A model generated the notes under the pieces. It was given only the letters and a program-made list of their open reading frames with translations, had not been told where the DNA came from and did not search any database. Shown here one piece after another: positions 13,424-47,979 of a stretch of DNA of 55,858 nucleotides. This DNA is from a virus (taxonomy: Duplodnaviria > Heunggongvirae > Uroviricota > Caudoviricetes), in IMG/VR virus record IMGVR_UViG_2660237930_000002, one strand, 5' to 3'. Within the stretch, counting starts at the first letter, position 1. Each line of letters opens with the position of its first letter. Both the position numbers and the translations under genes were made by a program.

Positions 13424-13438
13424 TTACCTTAAAGGTAT
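13424..13438. promoter_or_regulatory. Near-consensus operator (TTACC-ttaaa-GGTAT) upstream of integrase
   Basis: One mismatch to the TTACC-N5-GGTAA palindrome found elsewhere in the prophage. Confidence 0.4.
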
Positions 13439-13480
13439 ACTCTCATACCGTCATGAAAATGGTTTCTATACGGGTGAATT

Positions 13481-14731
13481 GTGCTTACCGATACAAAATT
13501 AAAAAACCTCAAGCCGCAGGACAAACTGTACAAGGTCTCCGATCGTGACGGGCTGTATGTAGCTGTGCTTACGTCAGGCACGGTCTCGTTTCGCTACGAC
13601 TACCGTATCAACGGTCGCCGCGAAACGCTGGTAATCGGGCAGTATGGGCGTGACGGTATCAGCCTGGCAGAAGCGCGAGAAGAACTGATTGCTGCAAAGA
13701 AGCTGCTTAAAGCAGGCCAGTCACCGGCTGCGGCTAAACGTGACGGTATCAAAAAGATTCGTGGTGCCGAGACGTTTGCGGTACATACCGACAGTTATAT
13801 GAAACACGTCATCCTGGCTGACAGTACCCGCGCAATGAAACAGGCGGTGATCGACCGTGACATACTTCCGGTTCTTGGCAATAAAATGATGGCTGAAATT
13901 ACCACATCGATGGTTCGTGATTTGTGTGACCGGATTGTCGAACGCGGTGGCCGGGCAACAGCAGTGCAGGCCAGGGAGATCATCAGTAGCGTATACCGTC
14001 ACGCCAATGACCGTGGTCATGGTTTGTTTAATCCTGCGGCTGACATTAAACCTTCGTCTATCGCCATATTTAAACCACGAGAGCGAACACTGACACCAGA
14101 AGAAATTGGCCTGTTCTTCCGCACGCTGGATGCCATTGGTGCTATGGGCACTATGAAAATGGCTTTAAAACTGGTGCTTATCACTATGGTTCGTAAGGGC
14201 GAATTCACCAATGCAACGTGGGATGAAATAGATTTTAAAAAATGGACATGGACAATTCCTTCAGACCGCATGAAAGGAAGCCGGGCGCACGTTATTTACC
14301 TGCCTAAACAGGCACAGGATATATTGGTCGGGTTGCAGATGTGCGCTGGTGGAAGTGAATATCTGGTTCCTGGTCGTTACAACTTCCGGAAGCCATTATC
14401 TAATGCCGCGCTGAACTCTCTGATCGACAGAACGGTGAAAATAATAAATGAAGATGGTGAGCATATTCAGGACTTCACCGTACACGATATGCGCCGTACA
14501 GCCAGTACGTTGTTGCATGAGGCTGGTTATCCTTCAGACTGGATTGAAAAGGCTCTGGCACATGAGCAGAAAGGTGTGCGCGCCGTATATAACAAAGCGG
14601 AATACGCCAGACAGCGCGCCTACATGTTGCAGCAGTGGGCCGATATGATTGATTCCTGGATTAACGGGGAGCATACGGATCTGATTCCGTTCTCCCCGTC
14701 GAAGTTTGAGAAGTGGATGGCGGGGGAATAA
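13481..14731 (+). CDS. Tyrosine integrase (P4-type), GTG start
   Basis: N-terminus LTDTKLKNLKPQDKLYKVSDRDGLYVAV... typical of P4-like integrase arm-binding domain; C-terminal ...HDMRRTASTLL...Y region; adjacent to attL. Confidence 0.9.
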   Translation: MLTDTKLKNLKPQDKLYKVSDRDGLYVAVLTSGTVSFRYDYRINGRRETLVIGQYGRDGISLAEAREELIAAKKLLKAGQSPAAAKRDGIKKIRGAETFAVHTDSYMKHVILADSTRAMKQAVIDRDILPVLGNKMMAEITTSMVRDLCDRIVERGGRATAVQAREIISSVYRHANDRGHGLFNPAADIKPSSIAIFKPRERTLTPEEIGLFFRTLDAIGAMGTMKMALKLVLITMVRKGEFTNATWDEIDFKKWTWTIPSDRMKGSRAHVIYLPKQAQDILVGLQMCAGGSEYLVPGRYNFRKPLSNAALNSLIDRTVKIINEDGEHIQDFTVHDMRRTASTLLHEAGYPSDWIEKALAHEQKGVRAVYNKAEYARQRAYMLQQWADMIDSWINGEHTDLIPFSPSKFEKWMAGE

Positions 14732-14734
14732 CGT

Positions 14735-14929
14735 TTAATTATTCTGCTGATTTTCTTCCATCTCGGCTTCTGCTGCCAGTGATTCAATTTTGTCTGCGAA
14801 TATTGCTGACAGCGTTGCAAATTCAGCATCAGTGACAGCGGGAATCGGAACAAACCTGATCCCGCTGTGTGCAAGCATGTTTGCAGTTTCAAGGCATTTC
14901 CTTAAATCTGCTGGTGATGCCCTGTTCAT
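14735..14929 (-). CDS. Small hypothetical phage protein (64 aa)
   Basis: ORF with ATGA overlap to the upstream methyltransferase gene stop, suggesting translational coupling. Confidence 0.4.
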   Translation of the reverse strand: MNRASPADLRKCLETANMLAHSGIRFVPIPAVTDAEFATLSAIFADKIESLAAEAEMEENQQNN

Positions 14930-15576
14930 GCTGCACGCTCCCGCCCCTGGTTGTCTGTTGGTGACAGCGGAGCATTGCTGAATGCATTTGTTAATCCGCC
15001 AATATCCAACGCGTATCCGGGGTGTAGTTGCACTGCCGGGTCTTCGCACTGATTACCCCAAACATCGAAGCCATGAGACGACTGGCGGGCGAACAGTTCA
15101 ATGCGAGAAACATCGCCTAACAATTGCACAAGTTTTTCACGAACGACATCTGGTTTTCTTGAATGCTCAAGCCGCGGTGCCGTAAATGACTGAACGATCC
15201 CTGCATTAATGCGCGGAGGTAGTTTTCCCTTTACTGCAAACAGGCAATCTTCACTATTGGCGCGAGTCATGTGACCCATACCCATAACCAGTTTATCTGG
15301 TTGTCGACTACCACATTTTATCCACGTGAATCCCTTCATGGTCATCAGACGGAACCCCCAGGCTTCAACAACTTTTAGTGCTTCGAGTGGTTGTGTTGGC
15401 ACCCACCACATGGCCAACAGACAGTTTTCATCGGCCAAATCCCACACAGGAAGGCGGCAGATGTCCAGCACACTCATAACCGGATATTTAAAACCGGCAC
15501 CGCGATTACCATCTGCGGCTTTGTCCCGGTATACCCAGGGTGGATCTGCATAGATTAGTGTGTATTTCTTAGTCAT
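14926..15576 (-). CDS. MT-A70 family DNA N6-adenine methyltransferase (orphan, phage-encoded)
   Basis: IYADPPW motif near N-terminus; no adjacent restriction endonuclease gene. Confidence 0.8.
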   Translation of the reverse strand: MTKKYTLIYADPPWVYRDKAADGNRGAGFKYPVMSVLDICRLPVWDLADENCLLAMWWVPTQPLEALKVVEAWGFRLMTMKGFTWIKCGSRQPDKLVMGMGHMTRANSEDCLFAVKGKLPPRINAGIVQSFTAPRLEHSRKPDVVREKLVQLLGDVSRIELFARQSSHGFDVWGNQCEDPAVQLHPGYALDIGGLTNAFSNAPLSPTDNQGRERAA

Positions 15577-15868
15577 AAACCACCCCACAACATCCTATGC
15601 CGCTATAGTCGCCACGGCGAAGGCCGTTACCTTTTGTGATACATTGGTCCCTGCGAACCGCGATCCTCGCACGCTCAACATCACCAGAAGCAACATCCAT
15701 ACACTGAAGCCAAAGGTGAGCGGCAATGCGGAACTGCCCTTTTTTCTCTCTTTCAATCGCGCGTTTTTCGATCTCTATCGCCGCAGGAGTAACGGCGACA
15801 ATCTTTGACGGACTGCGCATTGAAACCTTGTTCATGTGATATTTTTCAAGTCGGCTTAACTTTTTCAC
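15569..15868 (-). CDS. Hypothetical phage protein
   Basis: ORF in the leftward early operon; start uncertain. Confidence 0.4.
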   Translation of the reverse strand: MKKLSRLEKYHMNKVSMRSPSKIVAVTPAAIEIEKRAIEREKKGQFRIAAHLWLQCMDVASGDVERARIAVRRDQCITKGNGLRRGDYSGIGCCGVVYD

Positions 15869-15977
15869 TTAATCCAACCCTCTCTGAAAATTAATGCCAG
15901 CAGATAAAGCCATGCTGAAACAGAGGCCAGGAATAAGTACCATCCTGACCATTTGCTCCAGTGCCTTAGCAGCACAC

Positions 15978-46604: not shown

Positions 46605-47315
46605 TCAGAAGAACCCAGCCTTGTCGTTGATGTACTCCGCGTGTGTCTGGATATCACGCAGGCATTTGCTCACACCGACGATGTAGCAGAACATGGTGGT
46701 CAGCTCCGCCGCCGCGCCCGATACGTCGTGCCCGTCTTCCTGTAACTGGTTCAGCAGATTCATCAGCAGTGAGTGCTCCGTCAGGCCGAGAACACCAGAC
46801 GGCGAATGAATCAGGCTACGGTAGCCGGGCTTCAGTGGGGCACTGTAGGTTTTGTTCTCTATCTTCATTGCCTGCATTACTGCTGACGCCGTGGCGTTGG
46901 CTACCTGGTCGGCAACCATCTTTATGCGTTCTTCCTGCGGTAGCGAGTTTTTAATGTAACTTCCGGTGCGGCGGATCTGAGGAAGAACCTCACCTGTAAC
47001 CCATTTGCGAAAGCGGTAGGGGATAGTGCCTGGTGTCACTGCGTCGCGGCAGCGGAGGATCAGTGTGTAGAGGCCTGACTCGGAGATGATGTTGATCTCT
47101 TTTACTCGGCTATCAAAAATTGCACGATGTTCATGCCCTATGTTGAACATAGACCTTTCATCATCATCCAGTTTTTCAAGTGCTTGGGTGACGTTTTGGA
47201 TACGCAGCGCACTACAAACGTCTTGGGCTACAAACCATGGTTGGCCATCGATAATGATGGAACGGATAGGGTTAACAGATTCAAATTTGAAGATGGCAGT
47301 TTGAGCATTAGCCAT
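46605..47315 (-). CDS. BRO-N domain protein / antirepressor-like
   Basis: N-terminus ...AIFKFESVNPIRSIIIDGQPWFVAQDVCSAL fits BRO-N; GGAG RBS. Confidence 0.65.
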   Translation of the reverse strand: MANAQTAIFKFESVNPIRSIIIDGQPWFVAQDVCSALRIQNVTQALEKLDDDERSMFNIGHEHRAIFDSRVKEINIISESGLYTLILRCRDAVTPGTIPYRFRKWVTGEVLPQIRRTGSYIKNSLPQEERIKMVADQVANATASAVMQAMKIENKTYSAPLKPGYRSLIHSPSGVLGLTEHSLLMNLLNQLQEDGHDVSGAAAELTTMFCYIVGVSKCLRDIQTHAEYINDKAGFF

Positions 47316-47584
47316 GGTGGTTATCTCCACTTAGTGATTTTAATCACCACCGCAACGCCAATTACTGGTGGTGAACTGGACAAGGTTGGCGTACCGGCCT
47401 AAGTGGTACCGGCGTCCTTTCGGACCCCTGCCCAGCCCACCATAATTCGGATATGGCTGTGCTTAACGCATAAAAAAACCACGTCTGGCGTGGTATGCGC
47501 CACTTAGTAACTCGGGACGCCAATCCCGGCACTGGATTTTGCCAGTACCCGATTACTATGGCACAAGAGGAGTGCGATGTAAAT

Positions 47585-47599
47585 TTACCGCAAAGGTAA
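47585..47599. promoter_or_regulatory. Operator TTACC-gcaaa-GGTAA at the start of the BRO gene leader
   Basis: Perfect palindrome immediately downstream of a predicted -10. Confidence 0.6.
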
Positions 47600-47627
47600 A
47601 TATAAGCACTCCACTTGGTAATTGCAA
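47599..47627 (-). promoter_or_regulatory. Predicted sigma70 promoter of the BRO gene (TTGCAA-17-TATATT)
   Basis: Minus-strand -35 TTGCAA (47622-47627), 17-nt spacer, -10 TATATT (47599-47604). Confidence 0.45.
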
Positions 47628-47630
47628 ACC

Positions 47631-47888
47631 TTATCTGGTTTGTTTTCGTAATTGTTCGGCACAATAGTCGAGATGTGTTTGCAGATCCTGCATAGACATC
47701 TGTGAGCTGGTGACGTAGTTAATCAGTGCAGTCAGTTCGGCAAGTGGGCCATCGACATTAAATCCATCCTTATCGAGATCCCGGAGTAATTTCATCAAGT
47801 GCGATCCCTCCACTAGTGATCTGACGCCTCCCGGCGTGTGAATCCTTTCGGTAAATCCGTCTTCCAGTGGATAGTGATACTGCTGCAT
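47631..47888 (-). CDS. Hypothetical protein paralogous to the C-terminal domain of the BRO protein
   Basis: GGVRSLVEGSHLMKLLRDLDKDGFNVDGPLAELTALINYV aligns by eye with SGVLGLTEHSLLMNLLNQLQEDGHDVSGAAAELTTMFCYI of the BRO protein. Confidence 0.45.
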   Translation of the reverse strand: MQQYHYPLEDGFTERIHTPGGVRSLVEGSHLMKLLRDLDKDGFNVDGPLAELTALINYVTSSQMSMQDLQTHLDYCAEQLRKQTR

Positions 47889-47964
47889 CTTATCTTCTCC
47901 ATGCAATAACTGTATATTTATACAGTAGCAAATAATTTGTTTGCTATCCAGCACGTTTTGCAAA

Positions 47965-47979
47965 TTACCCGAAAGGTAA
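47965..47979. promoter_or_regulatory. Operator TTACC-cgaaa-GGTAA
   Basis: Perfect palindrome 77 nt upstream of the 47888 start. Confidence 0.55.

What the first reader, a model, noticed from the sequence alone, without database searches (positions are those of the whole stretch)
13424..47979. Palindrome TTACC-N5-GGTAA repeated 8 times, exclusively in prophage intergenic regions
Perfect sites at 18482, 18543, 19256, 21543, 28907, 46505, 47585 and 47965, with near-sites at 13424, 19304 and 21605. About 0.05 perfect sites are expected by chance in 56 kb, and none occur in host DNA or inside genes. Sites sit at the repressor/cro divergent region, the leftward early promoter, upstream of integrase, after the replication genes, between terminase and portal, and in front of each antirepressor-module gene, overlapping or just downstream of predicted -10 elements. 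This looks like a distributed operator regulon for one dimeric phage regulator, most simply the two-HTH repressor at 18616-19200.
Basis: seen in the sequence. Interest (0 to 1): 0.75.

Follow-up and report, generated by a model that had tools for sequence, protein, structure and literature searches.

The report
Repressor operators of an ε15-like prophage
The repeated palindrome is real and is the operator set of the repressor of an ε15/phiV10-type prophage, but the same motif is already annotated as repressor-binding sites in the phage ε15 reference genome, so it is a sound but ordinary finding.

Summary
TTACC-N5-GGTAA occurs 9 times as a perfect site, not 8. Site 25734 was missed, and two coordinates need correcting to 18544 and 28897. 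Six weaker copies sit at positions that match sites in related phages. All lie in the about 3 kb of intergenic DNA of a Uetakevirus prophage (ε15/phiV10/TL-2011b/ZX5 type) inserted at the 3' end of guaA. A 234-kb sample of host DNA holds 2 perfect sites, both inside genes.

The ε15 RefSeq record already marks seven ATTACC-N5-GGTAAT sites as "protein_bind: repressor", at matching positions. The motif is the top palindrome in all seven Uetakevirus genomes I examined.

The repressor gene at 18616-19200 is a full-length homologue of SPC32H Rep (PDB 5D50). According to two papers that summarise the primary work, Rep binds palindromic sites as a tetramer through its N-terminal domain. The second HTH-like domain is a dimerisation module.

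Independent support comes from unrelated Pseudomonas phages. Their S24-type cI shares only this N-terminal domain, and they carry TTACC-N4-GGTAA sites just upstream of cI.

However, the unit is reported to be a tetramer, and only about half of the sites abut a -10 element. The finding is already known and of low interest.

The parts
13424..13438 (.). Near-site TTACCTTAAAGGTAT, 42 bp upstream of the int start codon.
   Evidence: The same GGTAT variant sits at the same place in all 7 genomes compared.
18482..18496 (.). PL-proximal operator. On the minus strand its first T is the last T of the -10 element, in the arrangement TTGACA-17-AATCAT.
   Evidence: The footprint is conserved in 7 genomes.
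18544..18558 (.). PL-distal operator, 62 bp from the proximal one and upstream of the -35 element.
   Evidence: The 62-63 bp spacing is kept in about 130 IMG/VR contigs.
18616..19200 (-). rep, the immunity repressor (194 aa). It has an N-terminal HTH DNA-binding domain, a middle HTH_3-like dimerisation domain and a C-terminal tetramerisation, Ant-binding domain.
   Evidence: The domain roles come from PMC9986798. Overexpression of the 99.5%-identical ZX5 ORF21 blocks lytic growth (identity).
19256..19270 (.). Operator in the rep/cro divergent region, on the rep side.
19273..19287 (.). Weak middle operator GCACCTCATAGGTAA (2 mismatches), 17 bp from 19256.
   Evidence: ε15 and SPC32H have a perfect site at this position.
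19304..19318 (.). Near-site in the PR spacer, just after the conserved -35 element TTGATT.
19355..19585 (+). Gene in the cro position (76 aa), a candidate second reader of the same or another motif.
   Evidence: Matches phrog_35 'transcriptional repressor' at E 5.6e-13. It is 58-84% identical across the four other genomes aligned.
19641..19655 (.). Weak site GCACCTCAAAGGTAA (2 mismatches), located after the cro terminator.
   Evidence: phiV10, Tyrion and BUCT711 have a one-mismatch site at the matching position.
21543..21557 (.). Distal operator of the promoter module that follows the replication genes.
21605..21619 (.). Proximal near-site of the same module, in the arrangement TTGATT-17-TTTAAT|TACC. 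Its right half doubles as the Shine-Dalgarno sequence of the DUF1064 gene.
25734..25748 (.). Operator abutting an extended -10 element (TGGTACTAT), after a terminator and 20 bp before the terS ATG at 25769.
   Evidence: ε15 annotates its equivalent (12-27) as a repressor site.
25752..25766 (.). Near-site 18 bp downstream of 25734, overlapping the terS Shine-Dalgarno sequence.
28897..28911 (.). Operator 90 bp upstream of the gp3-like gene and portal operon.
   Evidence: The ε15 equivalent (2931-2947) is annotated as a repressor site.
46505..46519 (.). Operator abutting the -10 element TAAAAT of a leftward promoter, placed in front of gene 46157-46483.
47364..47548 (-). isrK (47472-47548) and C4 antisense RNA (47364-47447), which form the leader of the Bro-N antirepressor gene (46605-47315).
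   Evidence: Both pass Rfam gathering scores. Bro-N matches Pfam at E 9.6e-20.
47585..47599 (.). Operator abutting the -10 element TATATT of the leftward promoter TTGCAA-17-TATATT, which would drive isrK-C4-bro.
47631..47888 (-). ant, a small SPC32H-type antirepressor (85 aa).
   Evidence: Matches 5D50 chain E at E 4.1e-47.
47910..47925 (.). LexA box CTGTATATTTATACAG, 22 bp upstream of the ant start codon.
   Evidence: A box is present at this place in all 7 genomes, exact in five and one base off in phiV10 and BUCT711.
47965..47979 (.). Operator in the divergent region between ant and the tailspike gene.
   Evidence: The ε15 equivalent (19895-19911) is annotated as a repressor site.

Best explanation
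The sites are the operators of Rep, the immunity repressor of a Uetakevirus (ε15/phiV10-type) prophage integrated at guaA.

Inferred mechanism:
- Each N-terminal HTH domain of Rep reads one TTACC half-site, and two such domains read one ATTACC-N5-GGTAAT palindrome.
- Because Rep is reported to be a tetramer, it offers two DNA-binding pairs and can hold two operators at once.
- Candidate pairs are the operators 17-18 bp apart (at the rep/cro region and before terS) and those 62 bp apart (at PL and at the promoter after the replication genes). In the 62-bp pairs the -35 and -10 elements lie between the two operators.
- In the lysogen this would shut the early promoters directly. It would also shut the promoter of the packaging operon and the promoters of the isrK-C4-bro antirepressor operon and its downstream gene.
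- Rep sites also lie upstream of the portal operon, the tailspike gene and int.

Induction would work as in SPC32H. SOS inactivation of LexA at the box at 47910 lets the small Ant protein be made, and Ant takes the Rep tetramer off the DNA.

What is shown here: the sites, their enrichment, their conserved positions, the homologies and the promoter-like hexamers. What is inferred: that Rep binds these exact 15-mers, that it bridges operator pairs, and that it represses each unit.
For: The motif and its locations are established.

Prior annotation and conservation:
- The ε15 RefSeq record annotates seven 'protein_bind / repressor' features, and every one is ATTACC-N5-GGTAAT, at positions matching those in the window.
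- The motif is the most frequent 5-mer palindrome in all 7 Uetakevirus genomes, with 8-11 copies each.

The repressor:
- Rep aligns over its full length with SPC32H Rep, PDB 5D50, at E 3.5e-42.
- Rep has an N-terminal DNA-binding domain, a middle dimerisation domain and a tetramerisation domain (PMC9986798).
- It binds palindromic sites as a tetramer, while the dimer binds weakly (PMC9638917).
- The N-terminal domain is 53-90% identical and its recognition helix is the same in all five Reps, while the whole proteins are 43-78% identical.

Independent lineage:
- Pseudomonas siphophage PseuP_224 and about 20 IMG/VR contigs encode an S24-type cI whose N-terminal domain is 41-48% identical to the Rep N-terminal domains.
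- They carry 1-3 TTACC-N4-GGTAA sites just upstream of cI, with variable spacers.
- The small genes next to that cI show no similarity to the Uetakevirus cro-position protein.

Promoter context:
- -10 hexamers end on the first T of the operator at PL, at terS, at the promoter after the replication genes, and at 46505 and 47585.
- The 62-63 bp pair spacing is kept in about 130 contigs even though the distance to rep varies.

Functional evidence: overexpressing the 99.5%-identical ZX5 repressor abolished free phage and cut endolysin and holin transcripts by more than 99.9% (PMC9782041).

Induction components: an Ant homologue (5D50_E, E 4e-47) and a LexA box.
Against: - I could not read any binding experiment on these 15-mers. 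The primary papers were not available. PMC9986798 states that the repression mechanism of Rep has not been extensively characterised.
- The cro-position protein is as conserved across the genus as the Rep N-terminal domain. Within the genus, conservation therefore cannot separate the two candidates.
- The sites at 28897 and 47965 lie 45-60 bp upstream of a different conserved promoter-like block, not over a -10 element. The sites at 13424, 18544 and 21543 also show no overlap with a core promoter.
- The promoter calls are consensus matches, and their total number is no higher than in shuffled sequence.
Confidence: 0.85

Rival explanations
1. The cro-position protein (19355-19585), not Rep, is the main reader of the dispersed sites. 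It would damp early, late and antirepressor promoters during lytic growth. Alternatively, it shares the sites with Rep, as λ Cro shares operators with CI.
For: - It belongs to a phage transcriptional-repressor family (phrog_35, E 5.6e-13).
- Its putative HTH segment AGTTSHYIQTHLT is identical in the five genomes compared, matching the conserved motif.
- It is encoded directly downstream of the operator cluster.
Against: - The Pseudomonas lineage has the same half-site and a homologue of the Rep N-terminal domain, but the small genes next to its cI are not similar to this protein.
- Operators at the packaging-operon and antirepressor promoters make sense for a lysogenic repressor and less sense for a lytic-phase protein.
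- SPC32H Rep is reported to bind palindromic DNA.
- Shared binding at the rep/cro region is not excluded.
Confidence: 0.1
2. The palindrome is the site of a conserved enterobacterial host transcription factor that the phage has recruited.
For: - All seven Uetakevirus genomes examined come from Enterobacteriaceae.
- The host sample does contain the motif, with 2 perfect sites in 234 kb.
Against: - Both host sites are inside genes rather than at promoters.
- Density in prophage intergenic DNA is more than 300-fold higher than in the host sample (hand calculation).
- The same half-site accompanies the homologous HTH domain in Pseudomonas phages.
- I know of no E. coli regulator with this consensus. 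This rests on my own knowledge and was not tested.
Confidence: 0.03
3. The repeats act at the RNA level, as hairpins, terminators or processing sites, or they are restriction-modification or packaging signals rather than operators.
For: - Each site can form a 5-7 bp hairpin.
- The phage encodes DNA methyltransferases.
Against: - The hairpins are weak (-3.3 to -6.8 kcal/mol) and are not followed by T runs.
- The sites sit upstream of, or at, transcription starts and in divergent regions, so many would not be transcribed in a single sense.
- The half-sites are constant while the spacer varies freely, which is the pattern expected of a protein-binding site.
- Restriction or packaging sites would not avoid coding DNA.
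Confidence: 0.02

Closest known systems
Predicted repressor-binding sites of Salmonella phage ε15 (RefSeq NC_004775.2; Kropinski et al. 2007, Virology 369:234)
   Same: - The same 17-bp palindrome, ATTACC-N5-GGTAAT.
- The same positions: before terS, before the gp3/portal operon, in the gp19(ant)/tailspike divergent region, at the PL region and after the replication genes.
- The same assignment to the repressor.
   Different: - The record marks only 7 of the 11 perfect ε15 sites, and none at the rep/cro region.
- ε15 lacks the isrK-C4-bro module, so the window sites 46505 and 47585 have no ε15 counterpart.
- The ε15 spacers are A/T-rich, while the window's are mixed.
- The annotation appears to be a prediction. 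I could not read the paper.
Rep-Ant-LexA switch of Salmonella phage SPC32H (Kim & Ryu 2013; Kim et al. 2016; PDB 5D50 and 5D4Z)
   Same: - A full-length Rep homologue and an Ant homologue with near-full-length alignment.
- A LexA box before ant.
- No S24 autocleavage domain in Rep.
- The SPC32H genome carries the same motif 10 times.
   Different: - The window Rep is only about 43% identical to SPC32H Rep.
- The window also has a second, Bro-N antirepressor behind isrK and C4 RNAs.
- I could not check which operators were tested experimentally in SPC32H.
Phage P1 C1 repressor with operators dispersed around the genome, including Op51 of the c4-icd-ant immI operon (from my own knowledge)
   Same: - One repressor controls many separate transcription units through dispersed operators.
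- One of those units is an antirepressor operon led by a C4 antisense RNA. A C4 RNA is present here, with a Rep site at its promoter.
   Different: - P1 operators are asymmetric 17-mers read by a different protein fold.
- P1 is a plasmid prophage.
- Neither point was tested here.
λ CI with the tripartite operators OL and OR
   Same: - Clustered operators at divergent and leftward early promoters, with pairs suited to cooperative binding.
   Different: - Rep has no S24 domain and is inactivated by an antirepressor rather than by RecA-stimulated cleavage.
- The sites extend to late and accessory promoters.
Mycobacteriophage L5 gp71 'stoperators' and Streptomyces phiC31 conserved inverted repeats (from my own knowledge)
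   Same: - Many repressor sites are spread over the whole phage genome.
   Different: - L5 sites are asymmetric, often lie within transcribed regions, and depend on orientation.
- Here the sites are palindromic and strictly intergenic.

Membership tests
Uetakevirus (ε15-like) repressor operator set | The motif ATTACC-N5-GGTAAT is present in many copies. | tested here: met
   There are 9 perfect and 6 weaker sites. It is the top palindrome, as in 6 reference genomes.
Uetakevirus (ε15-like) repressor operator set | Sites occupy the same positions as in ε15: PL, the rep/cro region, after the replication genes, before terS, before the portal operon, the ant/tailspike region and before int. | tested here: met
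   Anchored alignments of 7 genomes and the ε15 feature table.
Uetakevirus (ε15-like) repressor operator set | The genome backbone is that of an ε15/phiV10-type phage. | tested here: met
   98% identity to vB_EcoP_ZX5 and TL-2011b over 84% of a 24-kb query. The attachment core ATTGAGTGGGAATGATT is present at 13274 and, with two mismatches, at 55210.
Uetakevirus (ε15-like) repressor operator set | The repressor physically binds the sites. | not testable with these tools
   Only indirect evidence is available: homology, co-occurrence of the N-terminal domain and the half-site in a second lineage, and secondary literature.
SPC32H-type Rep/Ant antirepression switch | A Rep homologue with an N-terminal DNA-binding domain, a middle dimerisation domain and a C-terminal tetramerisation domain. 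| tested here: met
   Query residues 1-190 align to 5D50_A residues 2-197 at E 3.5e-42.
SPC32H-type Rep/Ant antirepression switch | A small Ant protein encoded divergently from the tailspike gene. | tested here: met
   The product of 47631-47888 (minus strand) matches 5D50_E at E 4.1e-47. The gene order matches SPC32H.
SPC32H-type Rep/Ant antirepression switch | A LexA box at the ant promoter. | tested here: met
   CTGTATATTTATACAG lies at 47910-47925. A box is present at this place in all 7 genomes, exact in five and one base off in phiV10 and BUCT711.
SPC32H-type Rep/Ant antirepression switch | Rep is not self-cleaving, meaning it has no S24 peptidase domain. | tested here: met
   Pfam reports only HTH-type hits.
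λ-type CI/LexA-like autocleaving repressor | A C-terminal S24 peptidase domain. | tested here: not met
   The Pseudomonas relatives have a much longer, unrelated C-terminal part instead. I read that part as S24-type from its sequence, but no family search was run on it.
L5-type stoperator system | Asymmetric sites inside transcribed regions with an orientation bias. | tested here: not met
   The sites are palindromic, and all 9 perfect sites are intergenic.

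The most novel reading that the evidence does not exclude
Two readings go beyond the existing annotation.

1. Rep acts as a fixed-geometry 'promoter clamp'. One tetramer holds two operators exactly 62-63 bp apart with the -35 and -10 elements between them. This module is used twice (at PL and after the replication genes) and is kept across the genus.

2. The TTACC-reading HTH domain is a portable module whose half-site spacing (N4 or N5) is set by the oligomerisation domain attached to it.

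A corollary follows. All Uetakeviruses of Salmonella, E. coli, Klebsiella and Enterobacter share one half-site code. Immunity specificity, if there is any, must then lie in the spacer or in Rep-Ant pairing.
Probability: 0.3. Interest if true: 0.4.

Novelty: already known. Interest (0 to 1): 0.15.

Why it matters
The finding gives a coherent regulatory map of a prophage type that is common in E. coli. Part of the 8-kb query from the right arm was found in 618 of 5,426 complete genomes. One repressor appears to guard the early promoters, the packaging operon and two antirepressor modules.

It does not open a new question. The motif and its assignment to the repressor are already in the ε15 reference annotation, and the repressor family has solved structures.

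The parts that go modestly beyond that annotation:
- the cross-lineage link between the N-terminal HTH domain and the TTACC half-site;
- the conserved 62-bp operator pairs;
- the Rep site at an isrK-C4-bro promoter.

Tried and rejected
- **Primary papers.** I tried to read Kropinski 2007 (PMID 17825342, PMC2698709), Kim 2016 (DOI and PMC4983836) and Kim & Ryu 2013 (PMC3807360). None is held. A full-text search for my remembered consensus ATTACCWDWWNGGTAAT found nothing. The prior-art claim therefore rests on the RefSeq feature table.
- **First viral-contig scan.** The scan with the N-terminal-domain alignment returned only loci 100% identical to the query. Re-ordering the alignment with the Pseudomonas sequence first gave the informative set.
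- **RNA hairpin or terminator reading.** Rejected because the folds are weak and no T runs follow.
- **Host-factor reading.** Rejected because of the host DNA sample and the Pseudomonas lineage.
- **The phrase 'two-HTH repressor' as meaning two DNA-reading heads.** Rejected. The second HTH-like fold is a dimerisation domain in the solved homologue.
- **PGAP's long terS start at 25688.** Judged unlikely because a terminator hairpin would then lie inside the gene.
- **Promoter scanner totals.** These are not above shuffles. I used only hexamers that are conserved across genomes.

Full report
**1. The observation**

An exact search finds nine perfect TTACC-N5-GGTAA sites: 18482, 18544, 19256, 21543, 25734, 28897, 46505, 47585 and 47965. 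It missed 25734 and gave two coordinates slightly wrong (18543 for 18544, 28907 for 28897).

At one mismatch there are seven more sites. Four are intergenic and lie next to perfect sites or gene starts: 13424, 19304, 21605 and 25752. Three are inside genes: 7551 in a host adhesin gene, 48197 in the tailspike gene and 50109 in the holin cluster.

Two intergenic two-mismatch sites, 19273 and 19641, match the position of better sites in related phages. The flanks extend the consensus to aTTACC-N5-GGTAAt.

Shuffles give 0.01 perfect sites per window. I also counted the motif directly in 234 kb of DNA treated as host:
- It contains 2 perfect sites, both inside genes, and 15 one-mismatch sites.
- That equals 0.33 and 2.5 per 38.6 kb.
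- The nine perfect sites are therefore far above background, while the genic one-mismatch sites are at chance level.
- About 3.3 kb of this sample (51901-55226) later proved to lie inside the integrated element, which does not change the result.

Intergenic DNA is 7.7% of the prophage span used (13289-51900), and all nine perfect sites lie in it. This holds provided terS starts at ATG 25769 rather than at PGAP's TTG 25688. A strong terminator hairpin at 25697-25714, and the terS starts annotated in ε15, Tyrion, SPC32H and TL-2011b, favour the later start.

**2. What the element is**

The region is a Uetakevirus prophage. It is 98% identical to vB_EcoP_ZX5 and TL-2011b over 84% of a 24-kb query, and it is related to phiV10 and ε15.

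It is inserted at the 3' end of guaA. The published attachment core lies at 13274-13290, with a two-mismatch copy at 55210-55226. The integrated element therefore runs to about 55.2 kb. It carries 3.4 kb of extra cargo after the lysis genes. Gene names come from an identical E. coli genome.

**3. Prior knowledge**

The RefSeq record of ε15 carries seven "protein_bind, repressor, lysogeny" features. I extracted them, and every one is ATTACC-N5-GGTAAT. They lie before terS, before the gp3/portal operon, in the gp19/tailspike divergent region, three in the PL region and one after the replication genes. These positions match those in the window.

A de novo count of all 5-mer palindromes with spacers of 0-10 puts TTACC-N5-GGTAA first in every genome tested:

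| Genome | Copies |
|---|---|
| Window prophage | 9 |
| TL-2011b | 10 |
| ε15 | 11 |
| phiV10 | 8 |
| SPC32H | 10 |
| Tyrion | 9 |
| BUCT711 | 9 |

Both the motif and its reading as a repressor operator set are therefore already public for the type phage. I could not read the ε15 paper or the SPC32H papers.

**4. Which protein reads the sites**

The product of 18616-19200 aligns over its full length with SPC32H Rep (PDB 5D50, E 3.5e-42).

Secondary sources describe Rep as follows:
- It has an N-terminal DNA-binding domain, a middle dimerisation domain and a C-terminal tetramerisation domain that also binds Ant (PMC9986798).
- It binds palindromic sites as a tetramer, and the dimer binds weakly (PMC9638917).

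The Pfam HTH_3 hit at residues 106-147 falls in the middle domain. The "two-HTH" description is thus structurally right but functionally misleading.

The five Rep sequences compared are only 43-78% identical overall. Their N-terminal domains are 53-90% identical, and the recognition helix (A/Q)NLVNRW is the same in all five. That fits an unchanging half-site.

The cro-position protein is equally conserved, so conservation within the genus cannot decide between the two candidates. A second lineage can:
- Pseudomonas siphophage PseuP_224 and about 20 IMG/VR contigs encode a longer cI repressor whose C-terminal part is unrelated to Rep and looks S24-type.
- Its N-terminal domain is 41-48% identical to the Rep N-terminal domains.
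- They carry 1-3 TTACC-N4-GGTAA sites immediately upstream of cI. The half-sites are constant and the spacers vary.
- The small genes next to that cI show no similarity to the Uetakevirus cro-position protein.

The half-site therefore travels with the Rep-type N-terminal domain.

Functional support comes from ZX5, whose repressor is 99.5% identical to the window's. Overexpressing it abolished free phage and reduced endolysin and holin transcripts by more than 99.9% (PMC9782041).

**5. Anatomy and likely mechanism**

*Class A: operator abutting the -10 element.* Alignments anchored on the sites show conserved promoter modules. In this class the last T of a -10 hexamer is the first T of the operator.

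| Site | Arrangement |
|---|---|
| 18482 (PL) | TTGACA-17-AATCAT |
| 21605 (promoter after the replication genes) | TTGATT-17-TTTAAT |
| 25734 (terS) | extended -10, TGGTACTAT |
| 46505 | TAAAAT |
| 47585 | TTGCAA-17-TATATT |

A bound repressor at these sites would cover roughly -7 to +8.

*PR.* The near-site 19304 fills the spacer after the conserved -35 element TTGATT.

*Operator pairs.* PL and the post-replication promoter share one design. A distal operator is followed by about 18 bp, then ctATTGA (containing the -35 element), 17 bp, the -10 element and the proximal operator. The two operators are 62 bp apart. This 62-63 bp spacing is kept in about 130 IMG/VR contigs even though the distance to rep varies. 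A tetramer with two DNA-binding pairs could hold both operators. That step is inference.

*Sites not over a core promoter.* 13424, 18544, 21543, 28897 and 47965 do not overlap a recognisable core promoter. At the portal and tailspike genes, a different conserved block lies 45-60 bp downstream of the Rep site. That block is cATATGTGGTT followed 7 nt later by a -10-like hexamer.

*Induction components.* All the expected parts are present:
- an Ant homologue (5D50_E, E 4.1e-47);
- a LexA box at 47910-47925;
- a Bro-N antirepressor preceded by isrK and C4 RNAs, whose putative promoter carries site 47585.

**6. Rival explanations**

- The cro-position protein may share or own the sites. This is possible at the rep/cro region and unlikely as the sole reader.
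- A host factor is unlikely.
- RNA hairpins or terminators are rejected. The folds are -3.3 to -6.8 kcal/mol with no T runs.

**7. Verdict**

It is not new. The same motif is annotated as repressor sites in ε15, and the repressor family has been studied structurally. Interest is low. The modest additions are the cross-lineage link between the domain and the half-site, the conserved 62-bp operator pair, and the Rep site at the isrK-C4-bro promoter.

Noticed in passing
window 47364-47548 (- strand): isrK Hfq-binding RNA (63.5 bits) and C4 antisense RNA (66 bits) lie in tandem between ant and the Bro-N gene. Together with the Rep site and promoter at 47585-47628 this resembles the P1 immI c4-ant operon.
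   Followed up: partly
window 21592, 22007, 28956 and 48012; also phiV10 (L005) 24736, Tyrion (L007) 26458, 34221 and 35391, and ε15 (L004) 24754: A second conserved element, cATATGTGGTT (its palindromic form is AACCATATATGGTT), sits 7 nt upstream of a -10-like hexamer. It occurs in front of the portal operon and the tailspike gene, and in relatives in front of the lysis cassette. There is no sigma-70 -35 element. It may be a late-promoter or activator site. It is conserved in front of the portal operon and tailspike gene in all 7 genomes.
   Followed up: partly
window 47910-47925: A perfect LexA box, CTGTATATTTATACAG, lies 22 bp upstream of the SPC32H-type ant gene. A box is present at the same place in all 7 genomes compared, one base off in phiV10 and BUCT711.
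   Followed up: yes
window 25688-25769: PGAP starts terS at TTG 25688, across a strong terminator hairpin (25697-25714) and two operator sites. ATG 25769, with the Shine-Dalgarno sequence GGTGG, is the likelier start.
   Followed up: partly
window 51800-55226: About 3.4 kb of cargo lies between the Rz gene and attR (55210-55226). It holds a protein with a receiver domain (52202-52978), an IS integrase fragment (53066-53461) and an AAA_15/AAA_21 ATPase (53477-54991). The ATPase gives only generic matches to defence ATPases (AriA, PtuA, GajA). No Rep sites occur here.
   Followed up: partly
window 28498-28574 (- strand): A tRNA-Arg gene lies between the terminase and portal genes, on the strand opposite to the late genes. 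SPC32H has one in the same place.
   Followed up: no
L009 19922, 19961 and 20823; L090-L109 at about 2428 and 2467: Pseudomonas phages of the PseuP_224 type have TTACC-N4-GGTAA operators on both sides of cI. The spacer is one base shorter than in Uetakevirus, and the repressor has a different C-terminal domain.
   Followed up: partly
operator spacers: window compared with ε15 and SPC32H: Spacers in the ε15 type are A/T-rich, and the first spacer base is always A or T. Spacers in the phiV10 type are mixed. This may be where immunity specificity lies, given that the half-sites are shared.
   Followed up: no
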